Below, piece by piece: positions 4,933 through 43,640 of a DNA stretch of 64,000 nucleotides. Each line of letters begins with the position of its first letter. Position 1 is the first letter of the stretch. The position numbers were made by a program, and so were the translations under genes. The DNA comes from Minisyncoccota bacterium (GTDB lineage: Bacteria; Patescibacteriota; Minisyncoccia; UBA6257; JAAZHW01), in contig DAONDV010000001.1 of assembly GCA_035402745.1 (NCBI GenBank), forward strand, positions 19,636 through 83,635, in the 5' to 3' direction. The notes under the pieces are model-generated. The model saw only the letters and a list, made by a program, of their open reading frames with translations, made no database searches and was not told the DNA's origin.

Positions 4933-6267
4933 ATGAAATCCATCAGCAAAAATATTTTTCGCGCTTATGATATTAGAGGGAAATATCCACAAGAGGTAAG
5001 TTCTGATTTGGCTTATCGTCTGGGGTATTTTTTTAAGAGTTTTTTAAAGCAATCCAAATTATTTAATAAAAATAAAGTGAGAGTTTTGGTAGGAGCGGAT
5101 TTGAGAAGCTCTAGCGAGTGTTTAAAGAGAAAATTAATTCAAGGATTGATTGACAGCGGAGTGGAGGTTTTTGATTTGGGCGTGAGTACTACCCCGATGT
5201 TTTATTTTGGGATTAAGAAAACCAAAGCGGATTTTGGAATTATGATTACCGCCTCGCATCTTTCCAAGGGGCATAATGGGTTTAAGATTTTTAATAAAAA
5301 TATTGAAGCTATCGGTGGAGAAAAATTGGGAAAATTCGTGAAAGTATTTGAGAAAGATATCGACGTCCATCCTTTGTTGGAAATGCGATTGGTTAAAATG
5401 GATCTTTTGGATGAATATGTTGATTTCTTGATTAAGCACTTTAATTTTCAAGCGGAAGAGCGGGATTTTTTGAAAAAAATAAAAATAGCCGTTAATGATC
5501 AATTTGGCATCGCCACCCCGATTTTTAAAAAATTATTTCCAAAATTGGATTTTTCTATAAAAATATTTAATGAAAAATCCAATGCGCAGTTTCACAAAAT
5601 TGTTGTAAAGTCTTTTAATCTGGGAGTTTATTTTGATGCGGATGGCGATAGGATTGTTTTTGTGAATGAAAAAGGATTAGTTGTTTCATCTGATGTAATC
5701 GGCCCAATATTGGCCGGATACTTTGCTCAATTCAATAAAAAGGCTAGAATAGTTATAGATGAAACAACGACTAAATTGGCTTCTGAGGTGATTACGGATG
5801 CTGGAGGGATGGTAGTTTATTCCAAAATTGGTCATAGTTATTTCAAAGTAAAGATGGCTGAAGTGAAAGCGATTTTTGGCTTGGAAAAATCCGGGCATTA
5901 TTATTTTAAAGATTTTTATTTTGCTGATTCCGGTATTTTCGCTTTTTTGGTTTTTTTGAAAGCGTTAGCTTTCTACGGAGCAGATTTTAATAATTTGCAG
6001 AATGATTTTAAAAAATATTTTATAGCTCCGGAGATTAATTTTTCGGCAGAAAATTATAAAGAAATAATAAATGCATTAAAAAAAGAATTTAGACGTTCAG
6101 TTAAAAAGATTTCCAATTTTGATGGTCTGTCTATGAATTTTGAAAATTGGAGATTTAATGTTAGATTATCAAATACGGAATCAATCGCAAGATTGAATTT
6201 AGAGGCGGATAGCGAAGTAGTATTGAAAGAAAAGTTGGCGTTTATAAAGAAATTAATAAAAAAATGA
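4933..6267 (+). CDS. phosphoglucomutase/phosphomannomutase family protein (alpha-D-phosphohexomutase)
   Basis: Ser-containing active-site loop ITASHLSKGHNGFK, metal-binding FDADGDR, sugar-binding GLEKSGHYYF. Confidence 0.75.
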   Translation: MKSISKNIFRAYDIRGKYPQEVSSDLAYRLGYFFKSFLKQSKLFNKNKVRVLVGADLRSSSECLKRKLIQGLIDSGVEVFDLGVSTTPMFYFGIKKTKADFGIMITASHLSKGHNGFKIFNKNIEAIGGEKLGKFVKVFEKDIDVHPLLEMRLVKMDLLDEYVDFLIKHFNFQAEERDFLKKIKIAVNDQFGIATPIFKKLFPKLDFSIKIFNEKSNAQFHKIVVKSFNLGVYFDADGDRIVFVNEKGLVVSSDVIGPILAGYFAQFNKKARIVIDETTTKLASEVITDAGGMVVYSKIGHSYFKVKMAEVKAIFGLEKSGHYYFKDFYFADSGIFAFLVFLKALAFYGADFNNLQNDFKKYFIAPEINFSAENYKEIINALKKEFRRSVKKISNFDGLSMNFENWRFNVRLSNTESIARLNLEADSEVVLKEKLAFIKKLIKK

Positions 6268-29535: not shown

Positions 29536-30042
29536 ATGCGTCCACATTTTGGTAGAAGAGAAGAAAAAATATTTGATGAGAAACTTCTTGATTTAAGAAG
29601 GGTTGTTCGTGTCACCGCTGGTGGTAAACGTTTTAGTTTCCGCGCTACTTTGGTAATTGGAGATAAAAAAGGAAGAGTGGCAGTGGGTATTGCTAAAGGT
29701 AAAGATGTTGCTCAAGCTATCGCTAAAGCAAAAGCTTCAGCGGAAAAAAGATTGATCAATGTTCCTATTATTGATGGTACTATTCCTCATGAAATTACCG
29801 CTAAATATTGCGCAGCTCAAGTTCTTTTGAAACCAGCCAAAGAAGGTCATGGATTGGTAGCTGGCGGCCCTGTGCGTATTGTTTGCGATCTCGCCGGAAT
29901 CAGGAATTTAAGTGCTAAAATTTTAGGACGTACCCCTAATAAATTATCTAATGCTCGTGCTACTTTGGAAGCTTTAAAAAATTTAAAACCAGCAACAAGA
30001 AAACAGGCAAAGGCCGAGGTTAAAGAGGTTGAAGAAAAATAA
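29536..30042 (+). CDS. rpsE: 30S ribosomal protein S5
   Basis: Sequence RVVRVTAGGKRFSFRATLVIGDKKGRVAVGIAKGKDV matches S5. Confidence 0.97.
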   Translation: MRPHFGRREEKIFDEKLLDLRRVVRVTAGGKRFSFRATLVIGDKKGRVAVGIAKGKDVAQAIAKAKASAEKRLINVPIIDGTIPHEITAKYCAAQVLLKPAKEGHGLVAGGPVRIVCDLAGIRNLSAKILGRTPNKLSNARATLEALKNLKPATRKQAKAEVKEVEEK

Positions 30043-30046
30043 AAAA

Positions 30047-30463
30047 ATGCAATTACACGATCTTAAAAAAGAATATAAGCAAAAAGATAAAAAGAGGGTA
30101 GGACGAGGAGGAAAACGAGGTACTACTTCCGGTCATGGAACAAAAGGACAGAAATCAAGGGCTGGTCATAAAATTAGGCCGGCTATTAGAGATCTTATCA
30201 TTAAGTTGCCTAAACAACGCGGTTTTAAATTTAAGAGTATTCAGACCAAGCCACAAACTGTTAATATTGGTGTGATTGATAAACATTTTAAGTCCGGAGA
30301 AATAGTATCTCCAAAAACTTTGTTGGTTAAGAAATTAATTAGCAAGGAAAAAGGAAGAATGCCAAAGGTTAAGGTTTTAGGTGGAGGTAAATCTGCCAAG
30401 AAATTTGTTTTTCAAAATTGCGTTTTTTCTAAAGATTTAAAGTATAAATTAAAAATTAAATAA
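30047..30463 (+). CDS. rplO: 50S ribosomal protein L15 (directly after S5; no L30 gene)
   Basis: Sequence MQLHDLKK...KRVGRGGKRGTTSGHGTKGQKSR matches L15. Start taken at ATG 30047; the track ORF begins upstream at 30029 overlapping rpsE. Confidence 0.93.
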   Translation: MQLHDLKKEYKQKDKKRVGRGGKRGTTSGHGTKGQKSRAGHKIRPAIRDLIIKLPKQRGFKFKSIQTKPQTVNIGVIDKHFKSGEIVSPKTLLVKKLISKEKGRMPKVKVLGGGKSAKKFVFQNCVFSKDLKYKLKIK

Positions 30464-37865: not shown

Positions 37866-38258
37866 ATGGTCTCTTTTTTTAACTCCTCAAATCTTTGGAG
37901 GTATTTAGTTTATTTTTGGACATTGGTTTTTTATACGGTGATTATTTGCGATCTTATCAACGGAAACGCTTTAGTTGGATATTTAGGTCCTTTGGCTGCT
38001 ATTTATATTGGTATTTTGGCTGTTTATGCCGGACAAAAAGAATTTGAAAGATGGTGTCATATTCACGATGGTCATCATCCCGGAGAGCTTTTTGTTATCG
38101 GTTGGACGGTGCTTGTTTTTGGTCTTTGGACCTTAGATTTATTTTTAGGTGATTTTTACAAATTTCCGGAAATTTTAATTTATACTTACATTGCGGTTTT
38201 GAGCGTTTTGGCTATAACTATAAAGTCCAAGAAAATTTATCGCACAAAGCATAGATGA
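37866..38258 (+). CDS. hypothetical 4-TM membrane protein
   Basis: Hydrophobic helices; no recognisable motifs. Confidence 0.5.
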   Translation: MVSFFNSSNLWRYLVYFWTLVFYTVIICDLINGNALVGYLGPLAAIYIGILAVYAGQKEFERWCHIHDGHHPGELFVIGWTVLVFGLWTLDLFLGDFYKFPEILIYTYIAVLSVLAITIKSKKIYRTKHR

Positions 38259-42449: not shown

Positions 42450-42473
42450 ATATTAACAAATCAAAAAATCGCT

Positions 42474-43217
42474 TTAAGCGGTTTTTTGATTAGCGTTTTG
42501 TTTATAATAATCAAATATTTGATCTAAATCTCCTTCCATGATTTTTTCTAGATTATGCCAATTCTTTTTATAGCGATGATCGGTAAGTCTGTCTTGTTGG
42601 AAATTATAGGTTTTTATTTTTTCTGAGCGATCTCCAGTCCCGATTTGTTGTCTGCGTTCGTCGGATAATTTTCCCTGACTGGCATTCCAATTGGCTTCAT
42701 ATAATCTGGCTTGCAATATTTCCATAGCTTTTTCGCGATTCTTGAATTGAGATCGTTCGTTCTGGCAAGCAACGATTACGCCGCTGGGTTTGTGTAAAAT
42801 TCTTACGGCCGTTTCTACTTTATTAACATTTTGTCCGCCAGCTCCGGATGATTTGCAAAAGGTGATTTCCAAATCTTGCGGGTTAATTTGTACGTTTACA
42901 TTTTTTGGTTTGGCTAAAATAGCCACAGAAGCGGTTGATGTATGAACTCTTCCTGATTTTTCGGTTTCGGGAACTCTTTGTACACGATGTACTCCGGCTT
43001 CATTTTTTAAGACATCAGCTCCTATTCCAGAAATTTCAAAACTTACTTCTTTAATGCCTCCAATGGAAGTATTATTGGAGTCCAACATGGTCATTTGCCA
43101 ATTTTTTCTAGTGGCGTATTTTTGATACATTCTAAATAGTTCAAAAGCAAAAAGAGCCGATTCTTCACCACCGGCTCCGGCTCTAATTTCAACAATAACA
43201 TTATTGACTTCGTCCAT
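42474..43217 (-). CDS. prfA: peptide chain release factor 1 lacking N-terminal domain 1 (domains 2-4 only; PET tripeptide, GGQ)
   Basis: Aligns from the first residue with E. coli RF1 from about residue 108 ([16 protein letters not shown]...[17 protein letters not shown]...[11 protein letters not shown]...). The rpmE stop lies only 13 nt upstream. Confidence 0.8.
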
Positions 43218-43230
43218 AAAATGATAAAAA

Positions 43231-43464
43231 TTAAGCTTTCTTAGCTTTTTTAGTCAATTCTTGTTTTTTGGCAACGCGTTGTTTGAATTTTTCTACTCTT
43301 CCGGCGGTGTCAATCATTTTTTCTTTGCCGGTATAAAAAGGATGGCAGTGTGAGCAGATTTCTACCTGAATTTCTTCTTGGGTAGATCCTACTTCAAAAG
43401 AATTGCCACAAACGCATTTAACCTTCGCTTTTTCGTGATATTTTGGATGTATATCTTTTTTCAT
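43231..43464 (-). CDS. rpmE: 50S ribosomal protein L31 (Zn-ribbon type)
   Basis: Sequence [11 protein letters not shown]...CVCGN...[10 protein letters not shown] matches L31. Confidence 0.9.
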
Positions 43465-43540
43465 ATATTTTTCATTTTAATACAAAGTTTTGAAAAAAGC
43501 AATATTGTAATATTGTTATGAGTAGTAGGGCCTTGCCTCG

Positions 43541-43640
43541 CACCCTTTGTGAATTTGGCTTATCTCGCTTTCTTGTGCGAGATAAGCCCGGTAAACGTCA
43601 TCCACAAAGGGTGTGGGGCTTGCTTTTTTCCTATTTTTTT
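43541..43640 (+). promoter_or_regulatory. structured 5' leader of rpsB-tsf: nested hairpins followed by a U-run (candidate S2 autoregulatory leader or attenuator)
   Basis: Outer 11-bp stem CACCCTTTGTG (43541-51) / CACAAAGGGTG (43603-13) encloses a perfect 12-bp hairpin GGCTTATCTCGC (43557-68) / GCGAGATAAGCC (43577-88). TTTTTTCCTATTTTTTT follows, 15 nt before the rpsB ATG. Confidence 0.4.

What the first reader, a model, noticed from the sequence alone, without database searches (positions are those of the whole stretch)
42474..43464. Release factor 1 lacking the entire N-terminal domain 1, encoded directly downstream of rpmE
The 247-aa product aligns from its first residues with E. coli RF1 starting near residue 108 (VEIRAG(T/A)GG...). 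It retains the PxT-type tripeptide region ([17 protein letters not shown]), GGQ and the C-terminal helix. The L31 gene ends only 13 nt upstream, so there is no room for domain 1, which is about 105 aa and contacts the L11 stalk and RF3. TGA stop codons are used in this window, so an RF2 must exist elsewhere. A domain-1-less RF1 would fit a genome lacking RF3, but that is inference.
Basis: partly seen in the sequence, partly recalled or inferred. Interest (0 to 1): 0.5.

Follow-up and report, generated by a model that had tools for sequence, protein, structure and literature searches.

The report
Natural release factor 1 without domain 1
This candidate-phyla-radiation bacterium, like most of its relatives, makes a stop-codon release factor (RF1) that lacks its whole first domain but is otherwise intact and under strong selection, so a large group of bacteria appears to end protein synthesis with a naturally minimised factor.

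Summary
ORF 42474-43217 (- strand, 247 aa) is an RF1 that begins at the position of E. coli RF1 residue ~105. It keeps the PxT decoding motif (PET), GGQ, the switch loop and domain 4. rpmE ends 13 nt upstream, and the RF1 frame has a stop 10 codons upstream, so domain 1 cannot be encoded there.

It is not an artefact. The identical protein is found in four or more independent assemblies. dN/dS against close relatives is 0.01-0.04. Among the 120 closest protein clusters (Paceibacteria/Parcubacteria), 83 have 15 or fewer residues before the EIRAG motif; E. coli has 113.

The gene is the ortholog of full-length prfA. The rpsB<- ->rpmE-prfA arrangement is shared with Patescibacteria that still have domain 1. 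Relatives show different partial deletions (80, 61-70, 33-46, 24 and 6-10 residues), which points to repeated erosion.

Most likely it is the housekeeping UAA/UAG release factor, working without L11-stalk docking or RF3. RF2, RF3 and PrmC of this genome were not obtained, so the RF3 link remains inference. I found no published description. I class it as a new variant of a known kind, of moderate interest.

The parts
42474..43217 (-). prfA encoding a 247-aa RF1 made of domains 2, 3 and 4 only. It starts with ATG and ends with TAA.
   Evidence: ORF. Pfam PCRF (profile 99-194 of 194) plus the full RF-1 domain. NCBIfam prfA 352-358 bits aligned from model position 103/110. PDB RF1 matches at 3.6e-80. 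AlphaFold model with pLDDT 84 and TM 0.89-0.90 to ribosome-bound RF1. dN/dS 0.01-0.04.
42963..42971 (-). Codons for P83-E84-T85, the PxT 'tripeptide anticodon' of RF1, within [17 protein letters not shown].
   Evidence: Read from the sequence: the reverse complement is CCC GAA ACC. P83 and T85 are invariant in 52 relatives. The PxTE(K/R) pattern is kept in all 121 sequences compared (120 homologs plus the window protein).
42831..42839 (-). Codons for G127-G128-Q129, the GGQ peptidyl-tRNA hydrolysis motif.
   Evidence: Read from the sequence: the reverse complement is GGC GGA CAA. The motif is invariant in 52 relatives and in all 121 sequences compared (120 homologs plus the window protein).
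43218..43230 (-). 13-nt rpmE-prfA spacer with no obvious Shine-Dalgarno sequence. Together with the in-frame stop inside rpmE, it leaves no room for domain 1.
43231..43464 (-). rpmE (ribosomal protein L31, 77 aa), the first gene of the two-gene rpmE-prfA unit.
   Evidence: Pfam Ribosomal_L31 at 1.6e-31 and NCBIfam L31 equivalog. rpmE lies directly upstream on the same strand in nearly all of the 36 truncated loci, and also upstream of full-length prfA in related Patescibacteria.
42459..42491 (.). 15-bp hairpin between the convergent galT-like gene (ends 42449) and prfA (ends 42474). It is a likely bidirectional terminator and overlaps the prfA stop codon.
   Evidence: Terminator-like hit. This is a consensus match only.

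Best explanation
This is the organism's housekeeping release factor 1, the ortholog of prfA, in a naturally minimised form. The N-terminal helical domain 1 (about 105 aa) has been deleted cleanly at the domain 1/2 linker. Domains 2 and 4 (stop-codon reading through the PET motif and the RVHTS loop), domain 3 (GGQ) and the switch loop remain.

Inferred mechanism: the protein enters the A site at UAA and UAG, opens so that GGQ reaches the peptidyl-transferase centre, and hydrolyses peptidyl-tRNA as canonical RF1 does. It cannot make the domain-1 contact with the L11 stalk (the GTPase-associated centre), and it cannot be a substrate for RF3-stimulated recycling. It must therefore leave the ribosome spontaneously or during RRF/EF-G recycling. 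UGA, which this genome uses as a stop, must be read by a separate RF2.

In evolutionary terms, rpmE-prfA is ancestral in Patescibacteria. Different lineages have deleted different parts of domain 1, and the Paceibacteria lineage of this window has lost all of it.

What is shown: the identity, boundaries, conservation, selection, synteny and fold of the gene. What is inferred: its activity, its independence of L11 and RF3, and the absence of prfC.
For: Identity and boundaries:
- prfA-type scores are far above prfB, prfH and ArfB.
- The alignment to solved RF1 starts at residue ~103-106.

Intact function-bearing parts:
- Invariant columns in 52 relatives include E10/R12/G14/G16/G17, H77-R78-Q80-R81-P83-T85-E86-K87, R90-H92-T93-S94, G125-G127-G128-Q129-N130-V131-N132-K133, and the switch-loop region R197-E199...Y204-N205.
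- The AlphaFold model has pLDDT 84.4 and pTM 0.70. It superposes on ribosome-bound T. thermophilus and E. coli RF1 at TM 0.89-0.90 and 2.4 A over ~247 residues.

The gene is real and selected:
- The identical protein occurs on JGI, ENA and NCBI assemblies from different samples.
- dN/dS is 0.011-0.038 against relatives 93-98% identical.

The truncation is lineage-wide:
- Of the 120 closest clusters, 83 have 15 or fewer residues before EIRAG, 28 have 16-40, 5 have 41-80 and 4 have more than 80.
- In 80 metagenome loci, 36 are truncated, with an in-frame stop usually 9-37 codons upstream of the motif; in four loci the frame stays open for 53-54 codons but runs into rpmE. 8 are intermediate and 32 are full length.

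Orthology:
- The arrangement rpsB/tsf <- -> rpmE-prfA is found for the 247-aa form (window), a 350-aa form (P0074), a 299-aa form (Sungbacteria) and a 262-aa form.

Independent erosion:
- The 80-aa forms keep the helix 3-4 region, while the 61-70-aa forms keep helices 1-2. The 33-46-aa forms carry a different conserved DWK(N)Y peptide.
- A crude neighbour-joining tree needs 10 or more state changes.

Plausibility from published work:
- Domain 1 is dispensable for codon-specific release in vitro.
- N-terminally truncated E. coli RF1 works in vivo.
- Domain 1 is needed for the RF3 interaction.
- These points are from Mora et al. 2003 as summarised in PMC1586002.
- RF3 is missing from 72 of 191 genomes, especially small ones (PMC1780047).
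- A complete Saccharibacteria gene table has RF1, RF2 and PrmC but no RF3.
- A Nealsonbacteria-like MAG expresses an RF2 of 969 bp and has a full-length L11 of 423 bp.
- A PrmC-type methyltransferase sits between rpmE and a short prfA in one relative.
Against: - No biochemical data exist for any of these proteins.
- The rest of this genome was not available. A second, full-length prfA, a free-standing domain 1, prfB and prfC cannot be ruled in or out for this organism.
- RF3 loss alone does not explain the deletion. Bacillus, Mycobacterium, Streptomyces, Mycoplasma and Chlamydia lack RF3 yet keep domain 1 (plus general knowledge of their RF1 lengths).
- In E. coli, RF1 activity depends strongly on L11 (reviewer comment in PMC1586002). 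A domain-1-less RF1 may therefore be slow unless the ribosome or the factor has compensating changes, and none were identified here.
- No PrmC gene was found near the truncated prfA of this window.
- No Shine-Dalgarno sequence precedes the ATG, so the start is assigned by conservation (MxxxxxI[IVL]EIRAG in dozens of relatives), not by a translation signal.
Confidence: 0.8

Rival explanations
1. It is a specialised paralog, a PrfH- or ArfB-like rescue or alternative-signal factor that lacks domain 1 as PrfH does. A canonical full-length prfA would then exist elsewhere in the genome.
For: PrfH also lacks domain 1 (PMC1586002). The protein falls below the curated prfA cut-offs (352.5 < 423.25 and 358.5 < 400). 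The rest of the genome was not seen.
Against: - The PrfH model scores only 83.6 bits (cut-off 166.65) and ArfB 54 bits.
- The decoding loop is the RF1 PxT/RxHTS type and is invariant across relatives.
- The shortfall against the prfA cut-off matches the missing ~105 model positions.
- No RtcB-type partner gene lies nearby.
- The gene occupies the rpmE-prfA slot that holds full-length prfA in other Patescibacteria.
- All of the closest 120 clusters are of this type, with no separate full-length set at similar identity.
Confidence: 0.05
2. It is a split gene. Domain 1 is encoded as a separate small protein elsewhere and joins the factor or the ribosome in trans.
For: Domain 1 is an autonomous, flexibly attached helical bundle, often unmodelled in ribosome complexes. 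For example, PDB chains of 242-259 residues cover E. coli residues 97-356. Weakly conserved helical proteins are hard to detect.
Against: - tblastn with domain 1 of two full-length Patescibacteria RF1s found nothing in the 64-kb window (best hit E = 0.06, inside prfA itself on the wrong frame).
- The operon contains only rpmE and prfA, with no candidate neighbour.
- Relatives show a graded series of partial deletions removing different helices. This pattern fits erosion, not a clean gene split.
Confidence: 0.05
3. It is an artefact or a decaying gene: an assembly error, a frameshift, a mis-called start or a pseudogene remnant.
For: Metagenome-assembled genomes do contain truncated gene calls. 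Some of the 16-40-residue 'extensions' in the databases are probably mis-called starts that overlap rpmE (for example P0004 and L153-L155).
Against: - The identical sequence is found in several independent assemblies.
- An in-frame stop and the intact rpmE lie upstream.
- Dozens of diverged relatives have the same architecture.
- dN/dS is 0.01-0.04.
- All catalytic and decoding motifs are invariant.
Confidence: 0.02
4. It is a single omnipotent release factor. The short RF1 would have widened its specificity to UGA, and the genome would have no RF2.
For: TGA is a rare stop here (8 of 78). No RF2 was found in the ~85 kb examined. A scan of GTDB genomes with the RF2 SPF...RRHTSF motif returned 0 Patescibacteria among 120 hits.
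Against: - The decoding loop is a standard RF1 loop with no RF2-like features.
- Related Patescibacteria have annotated and expressed RF2 genes. S. epibionticum has one of 1083 bp that is essential, and the Nealsonbacteria-like MAG PMX_810_sub has one of 969 bp.
- The motif scan used AT-rich codon choices and a strict motif, so a zero count is weak evidence.
Confidence: 0.03

Closest known systems
Canonical bacterial RF1 (PrfA; NCBIfam TIGR00019 / NF001859; structures include T. maritima 1RQ0 and T. thermophilus and E. coli RF1 on 70S)
   Same: Domains 2, 3 and 4, the PxT motif, the RxHTS loop, GGQ and the switch loop are all present. Identity is 44-49% in structural alignments to solved RF1s, with phmmer E-values down to 3.6e-80. 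The predicted fold superposes on ribosome-bound RF1 at TM ~0.9.
   Different: The whole of domain 1 (residues 1-~104 of E. coli RF1) is missing, so the protein fails the curated equivalog cut-offs. No prmC lies downstream. The gene is paired with rpmE.
Engineered N-terminally truncated E. coli RF1 and RF2 (Mora et al. 2003, as summarised in PMC1586002)
   Same: It has the same architecture as the laboratory deletion. That deletion retained codon-specific peptide release in vitro, supported growth, and lost the functional interaction with RF3.
   Different: The form here is natural, conserved across a large clade and under strong purifying selection. Its kinetics and any compensating changes are unknown. 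In the related MAG examined, RF2 seems to keep most of its N-terminus (969 bp). This matches the reported greater dependence of RF2 on domain 1.
PrfH (RFH), the RtcB-associated release-factor homolog
   Same: It lacks domain 1 and keeps a GGQ domain and a decoding-type domain.
   Different: PrfH has an altered decoding loop, is encoded next to an RtcB-family gene and acts in ribosome repair or rescue. Here the PrfH model scores 83.6 bits against a cut-off of 166.65, the loop is of RF1 type, and there is no RtcB neighbour.
ArfB / ICT1 / mtRF-R (C12orf65): GGQ-domain-only rescue factors
   Same: They share the GGQ domain (matches of 22-54 bits).
   Different: Those factors lack the codon-reading domains 2 and 4 and use a C-terminal tail in the mRNA channel. 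This protein keeps full decoding domains.

Membership tests
Bacterial class-I release factor RF1 (PrfA) | GGQ-containing RF-1 domain (domain 3) | tested here: met
   Pfam PF00472 at 1.3e-40 covers profile 2-116 of 116. GGQ is at residues 127-129 and is invariant in relatives.
Bacterial class-I release factor RF1 (PrfA) | RF1-type decoding elements: the PxT tripeptide and the following G-R-[IV]-H-T-S loop in domain 2 | tested here: met
   The sequence [17 protein letters not shown] is present. The PxTE(K/R) pattern is found in all 121 sequences compared (120 homologs plus the window protein) and the [GN]R[VIL]HTS loop in all 121.
Bacterial class-I release factor RF1 (PrfA) | Domain 4 and the switch loop, which complete the domain 2/4 superdomain | tested here: met
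   The alignment to RF1 models and structures runs to the C-terminus. TM is 0.89-0.90 over ~247 residues.
Bacterial class-I release factor RF1 (PrfA) | N-terminal helical domain 1 (contacts the L11 stalk; needed for the RF3 interaction) | tested here: not met
   Only 9 residues precede EIRAG, against 113 in E. coli. The PCRF profile is matched only from position 99. An upstream in-frame stop and rpmE leave no room.
Bacterial class-I release factor RF1 (PrfA) | Score at or above the curated equivalog cut-off (TIGR00019 423.25 bits; NF001859 400 bits) | tested here: not met
   The scores are 352.5 and 358.5 bits. The shortfall corresponds to the ~105 unmatched N-terminal model positions. NCBI accordingly names the protein 'PCRF domain-containing protein'.
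Bacterial class-I release factor RF1 (PrfA) | Orthologous genomic position relative to full-length prfA of related genomes | tested here: met
   rpmE-prfA next to a divergent rpsB-tsf is seen in the window and in Patescibacteria with 350-aa, 299-aa and 262-aa RF1. rpmE also lies upstream of full-length RF1 in 9 or more metagenome loci.
Bacterial class-I release factor RF1 (PrfA) | UAA/UAG-dependent peptidyl-tRNA hydrolysis on the ribosome | not testable with these tools
   This needs an in vitro release assay or genetic complementation.
RF2 (PrfB) | SPF tripeptide and RF2-type score (TIGR00020 cut-off 370) | tested here: not met
   The score is 231.5 bits. The loop is PET, not SPF.
PrfH (RFH) | PrfH-specific decoding loop, score at or above 166.65 bits, and an adjacent RtcB-family gene | tested here: not met
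   The score is 83.6 bits. The neighbours are rpmE and a convergent galT-like gene, with no RtcB within +-10 kb.
ArfB / ICT1 | GGQ domain alone plus a basic C-terminal tail, with no decoding domains | tested here: not met
   Only residues 108-141 match the ArfB model, at 54 bits against a cut-off of 100. Decoding domains are present.

The most novel reading that the evidence does not exclude
Across a major part of the Patescibacteria (the Paceibacteria/Parcubacteria lineages), the only UAA/UAG release factor is a three-domain 'mini-RF1'. Domain 1 has been eroded repeatedly and in different ways in separate lineages, while RF2 keeps its N-terminus. On this reading, docking on the L11 stalk and RF3-type recycling are not general requirements of bacterial termination. 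These organisms would then be a natural experiment on what domain 1 is for, beyond RF3.
Probability: 0.55. Interest if true: 0.6.

Novelty: new variant of a known kind. Interest (0 to 1): 0.5.

Why it matters
Domain 1 of class-I release factors is present in essentially every characterised bacterial RF1 and RF2, but its role is still debated. Proposed roles include L11-stalk docking, the RF3 interaction and association kinetics. A large, diverse clade that has deleted it from the housekeeping RF1 under strong purifying selection on the rest of the protein shows that the domain is dispensable in nature, not only in the test tube.

The graded series of deletions, and the apparent asymmetry with RF2, give direct handles for experiments. 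One could test release kinetics with and without L11, RF3 independence, and complementation of E. coli prfA mutants.

There is also a practical consequence. These proteins fail the curated RF1 models and are annotated as 'PCRF domain-containing protein'. Genome-completeness or pathway surveys may therefore wrongly score Paceibacteria as lacking prfA.

Tried and rejected
1. A separate domain-1 gene or a second RF in the window. tblastn with full-length Patescibacteria RF1s and with their N-terminal 104-108 aa found only the known gene.

2. Extending the view beyond the window with the look-up of encoding contigs at both ends and in the middle. No prfB, prfC, prmC or rplK was found.

3. Fishing for the lineage's RF2.
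- An RF2-motif DNA scan of IMG/VR gave 21 phage or host RF2 genes and none that was CPR-like.
- tblastn with three RF2s against ~0.9 Mb of Patescibacteria-type loci found no second RF gene.
- RF2 of this genome therefore remains unseen. Only supplement tables from the literature show RF2 in related lineages.

4. E. coli PrmC and L11 as tblastn probes against the same loci. PrmC appeared only next to full-length RF1 in loci that are probably not Patescibacteria, and L11 was not found. A PrmC-like gene was found only in L231.

5. The search of representatives clustered at 50% identity was of limited use. Many representatives are fusions or fragments. It mainly showed that most RF1 representatives start matching at residue ~100-115, with minorities at ~30-50 and ~70-90.

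6. Literature searches for a published description of domain-1-less RF1 in CPR/Patescibacteria found none.

7. Rfam found no family for the flanking RNA structures.

8. The promoter scan was no better than shuffled controls.

Full report
**What is there**

On the minus strand, ORF 43231-43464 encodes a 77-aa L31. After a 13-nt spacer, ORF 42474-43217 encodes a 247-aa protein. In the frame of the second ORF a stop lies 10 codons upstream of the ATG, inside rpmE, so no N-terminal extension is possible.

Pfam finds only the C-terminal half of the PCRF profile (positions 99-194 of 194) and a complete RF-1/GGQ domain. NCBIfam ranks prfA first at 352-358 bits, aligned from model position 103/110 to the end. 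prfB follows at 231 bits, prfH at 84 and ArfB at 54. Solved RF1 structures align from residue ~103-106 onward, with E-values down to 3.6e-80.

I checked my recalled E. coli RF1 sequence against the PDB, and it is identical to 5J30 over residues 1-360. Using it as a ruler, 9 residues precede the E of EIRAG here against 113 in E. coli. Met1 therefore corresponds to about residue 105, in the linker between domains 1 and 2. PET (42963-42971) and GGQ (42831-42839) were read directly from the DNA.

**The gene is real, selected and lineage-wide**

- The exact protein is GenBank HPT40064.1, named 'PCRF domain-containing protein' from a Candidatus Paceibacterota bacterium. It occurs on contigs of several independent JGI, ENA and NCBI assemblies.
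- Against relatives 93-98% identical, dN/dS is 0.011-0.038.
- In an alignment of 52 relatives, the decoding, GGQ and switch-loop residues are invariant.
- Of the 120 closest protein clusters (58-98% identity; named ones are Paceibacterota, Parcubacteria, Yanofskybacteria, Sungbacteria or Patescibacteria), 83 have 15 or fewer residues before EIRAG. 28 have 16-40, 5 have 41-80 and 4 have more than 80.
- At the DNA level, 36 of 80 metagenome loci have the short form. An in-frame stop usually lies 9-37 codons upstream of the motif; in four loci the frame stays open for 53-54 codons but runs into rpmE. 8 loci are intermediate, 32 are full length and 4 are cut by a contig end.

**Orthology and evolution**

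The arrangement rpsB-tsf (divergent), then rpmE-prfA, is shared by four forms. These are the 247-aa form in the window, a 350-aa RF1 of a Patescibacteria MAG, a 299-aa RF1 of a Sungbacteria MAG and a 262-aa RF1 of Parcubacteria GW2011_GWA1_36_12. In at least nine metagenome loci, a full-length RF1 also follows rpmE. The short gene is therefore prfA itself, not a paralog.

The N-termini form a series:
- Forms of ~105-111 aa have a full domain 1.
- Forms of 80 aa keep the helix 3-4 region.
- Forms of 61-70 aa keep helices 1-2.
- Forms of 33-46 aa carry a conserved (F/W)TAEDWKNY or DWKYWAE peptide.
- The shortest forms have 24 aa or 6-10 aa.

Because different lineages removed different parts, the deletions were independent. 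A crude neighbour-joining tree of domains 2-4 needs 10 or more changes between full and non-full states. That tree is only indicative.

**Fold**

An AlphaFold2 model built with the 52-sequence alignment has mean pLDDT 84.4 and pTM 0.70. It matches ribosome-bound RF1 of T. thermophilus and E. coli at TM 0.89-0.90 and 2.4 A over ~247 residues. It matches the closed crystal forms (1RQ0, 1ZBT, 2B3T) at only TM ~0.6. So the model is in the open, A-site conformation. This may be a modelling bias, and I draw no conclusion from it.

**Genetic code and partners**

- Stop-codon use in 78 non-overlapping ORFs is TAA 62, TAG 8 and TGA 8. Two TGA stops sit in ATGA overlaps, and conserved genes (EF-G, EF-Tu, RpoD, DnaG, SecY) are full length. 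The code is therefore standard, and UGA needs an RF2.
- prfB, prfC, prmC and rplK are not in the window or in ~10 kb beyond either end.
- Attempts to obtain the lineage's RF2 by motif scans failed.
- Published supplement tables give indirect information. The complete genome of the Saccharibacterium S. epibionticum lists RF1 (1068 bp, essential), PrmC and RF2 (1083 bp, essential), but no RF3 or K02837 (PMC10633639).
- A Nealsonbacteria-like MAG from a methanogenic reactor has an expressed RF2 of 969 bp and an L11 of 423 bp (PMC10936435).
- The gene table of the cultured Minisyncoccus archaeiphilus lists a PrmC (PMC12281837).
- In the GW2011_GWA1_36_12 relative, a 222-aa PrmC-type methyltransferase lies between rpmE and prfA. 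It scores 194 bits on TIGR03534 against a cut-off of 199, passes the HemK family model, and is aligned from model position 44.

**Mechanism**

Published work summarised in PMC1586002 (citing Mora et al. 2003) makes three points. Domain 1 is not needed for codon-specific peptide release in vitro. An N-terminally truncated E. coli RF1 functions in vivo. The domain is needed to stimulate RF3. A reviewer there adds that domain 1 matters more for RF2 than for RF1.

The simplest reading is that this protein is the working UAA/UAG release factor, acts like the laboratory truncation, and is recycled without RF3.

The RF3 argument alone is not sufficient. RF3 is absent from 72 of 191 genomes, including Bacillus, Mycobacterium, Streptomyces and Mycoplasma (PMC1780047), and these keep domain 1. 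So Paceibacteria have also dispensed with whatever RF3-independent role domain 1 plays, most plausibly docking on the L11 stalk. How they compensate is unknown.

**Comparison with known systems and novelty**

The protein works like RF1 and is the ortholog of prfA. It fails two formal membership criteria, namely presence of domain 1 and the curated HMM cut-offs, which is why databases call it a 'PCRF domain-containing protein'. It is not PrfH, ArfB or RF2.

Seven full-text searches and targeted reading of CPR ribosome papers found no description of this truncation. Subscription-only literature was not covered. I class it as a new variant of a known kind. It is of moderate interest to translation specialists and relevant to annotation pipelines.

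Noticed in passing
window 43528-43625 (+), rpsB 5' leader: A GC-rich long hairpin with a nested 12-bp hairpin lies just upstream of rpsB. For 43500-43625 the MFE is -57.9 kcal/mol, against -31.6 +/- 3.2 for shuffles (z = -8.1). No Rfam family reaches threshold. It may be a lineage-specific S2 autoregulatory leader.
   Followed up: partly
window 42459-42491: A 15-bp hairpin lies between the convergent galT-like gene and prfA and overlaps the prfA stop codon. It is a likely bidirectional terminator.
   Followed up: partly
window 29536-30463 (+): In the spc operon the S5 gene (29536-30042) overlaps the L15 gene (30029-30463), with no L30 gene between them. This missing-L30 hallmark of CPR bacteria fits the Paceibacteria assignment.
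   Followed up: yes
L231:5336-6004 (+), a Parcubacteria GW2011_GWA1_36_12-type contig: A 222-aa PrmC/HemK-type methyltransferase sits between rpmE and a 262-aa prfA, overlapping the prfA start by 4 nt. It aligns to the PrmC model only from position 44, so it lacks the PrmC N-terminal domain, and it carries NLPY in place of NPPY. The RF-modifying enzyme thus seems to be trimmed as well.
   Followed up: partly
L008, L018, L027 (GC 0.57), L013 (GC 0.64) and L024 (GC 0.50), IMG/VR contigs: These contigs carry short RF2-like ORFs that keep the SPF...RRHTSF decoding loop and the domain-4 motif (IRSYVL.PY..VKDHR) but have no GGQ domain at all. They could be a phage-borne 'decoding-only' RF2 derivative.
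   Followed up: no
Genome-contig scan, L029-L148: An AT-biased scan for the RF2 motif H-R-L-[VI]-R-x-S-P-F-D-x3-R-R-H-T-S-F returned 120 species and none was from the Patescibacteria.
   Followed up: no
protein cluster of window:42474-43217: The 90%-identity cluster of this RF1 also lists L31 proteins of 77-92 aa as members. This is an odd clustering, perhaps bridged by a fused L31-RF1 gene call in some assembly.
   Followed up: no
window 6264-6267 and 38255-38258: Two ATGA start/stop overlaps use TGA as the upstream stop. These are clear cases showing that TGA terminates translation in this genome.
   Followed up: yes
L170, L173, L199, L202, L207, L178 (metagenome loci): A subgroup of short RF1s carries a conserved 37-46-aa N-terminal peptide (...FTAEDWKNY...) that is unrelated to domain 1. 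In five of these six loci rpmE lies on the opposite strand; no rpmE was detected near L178. The role of this peptide is unknown.
   Followed up: no
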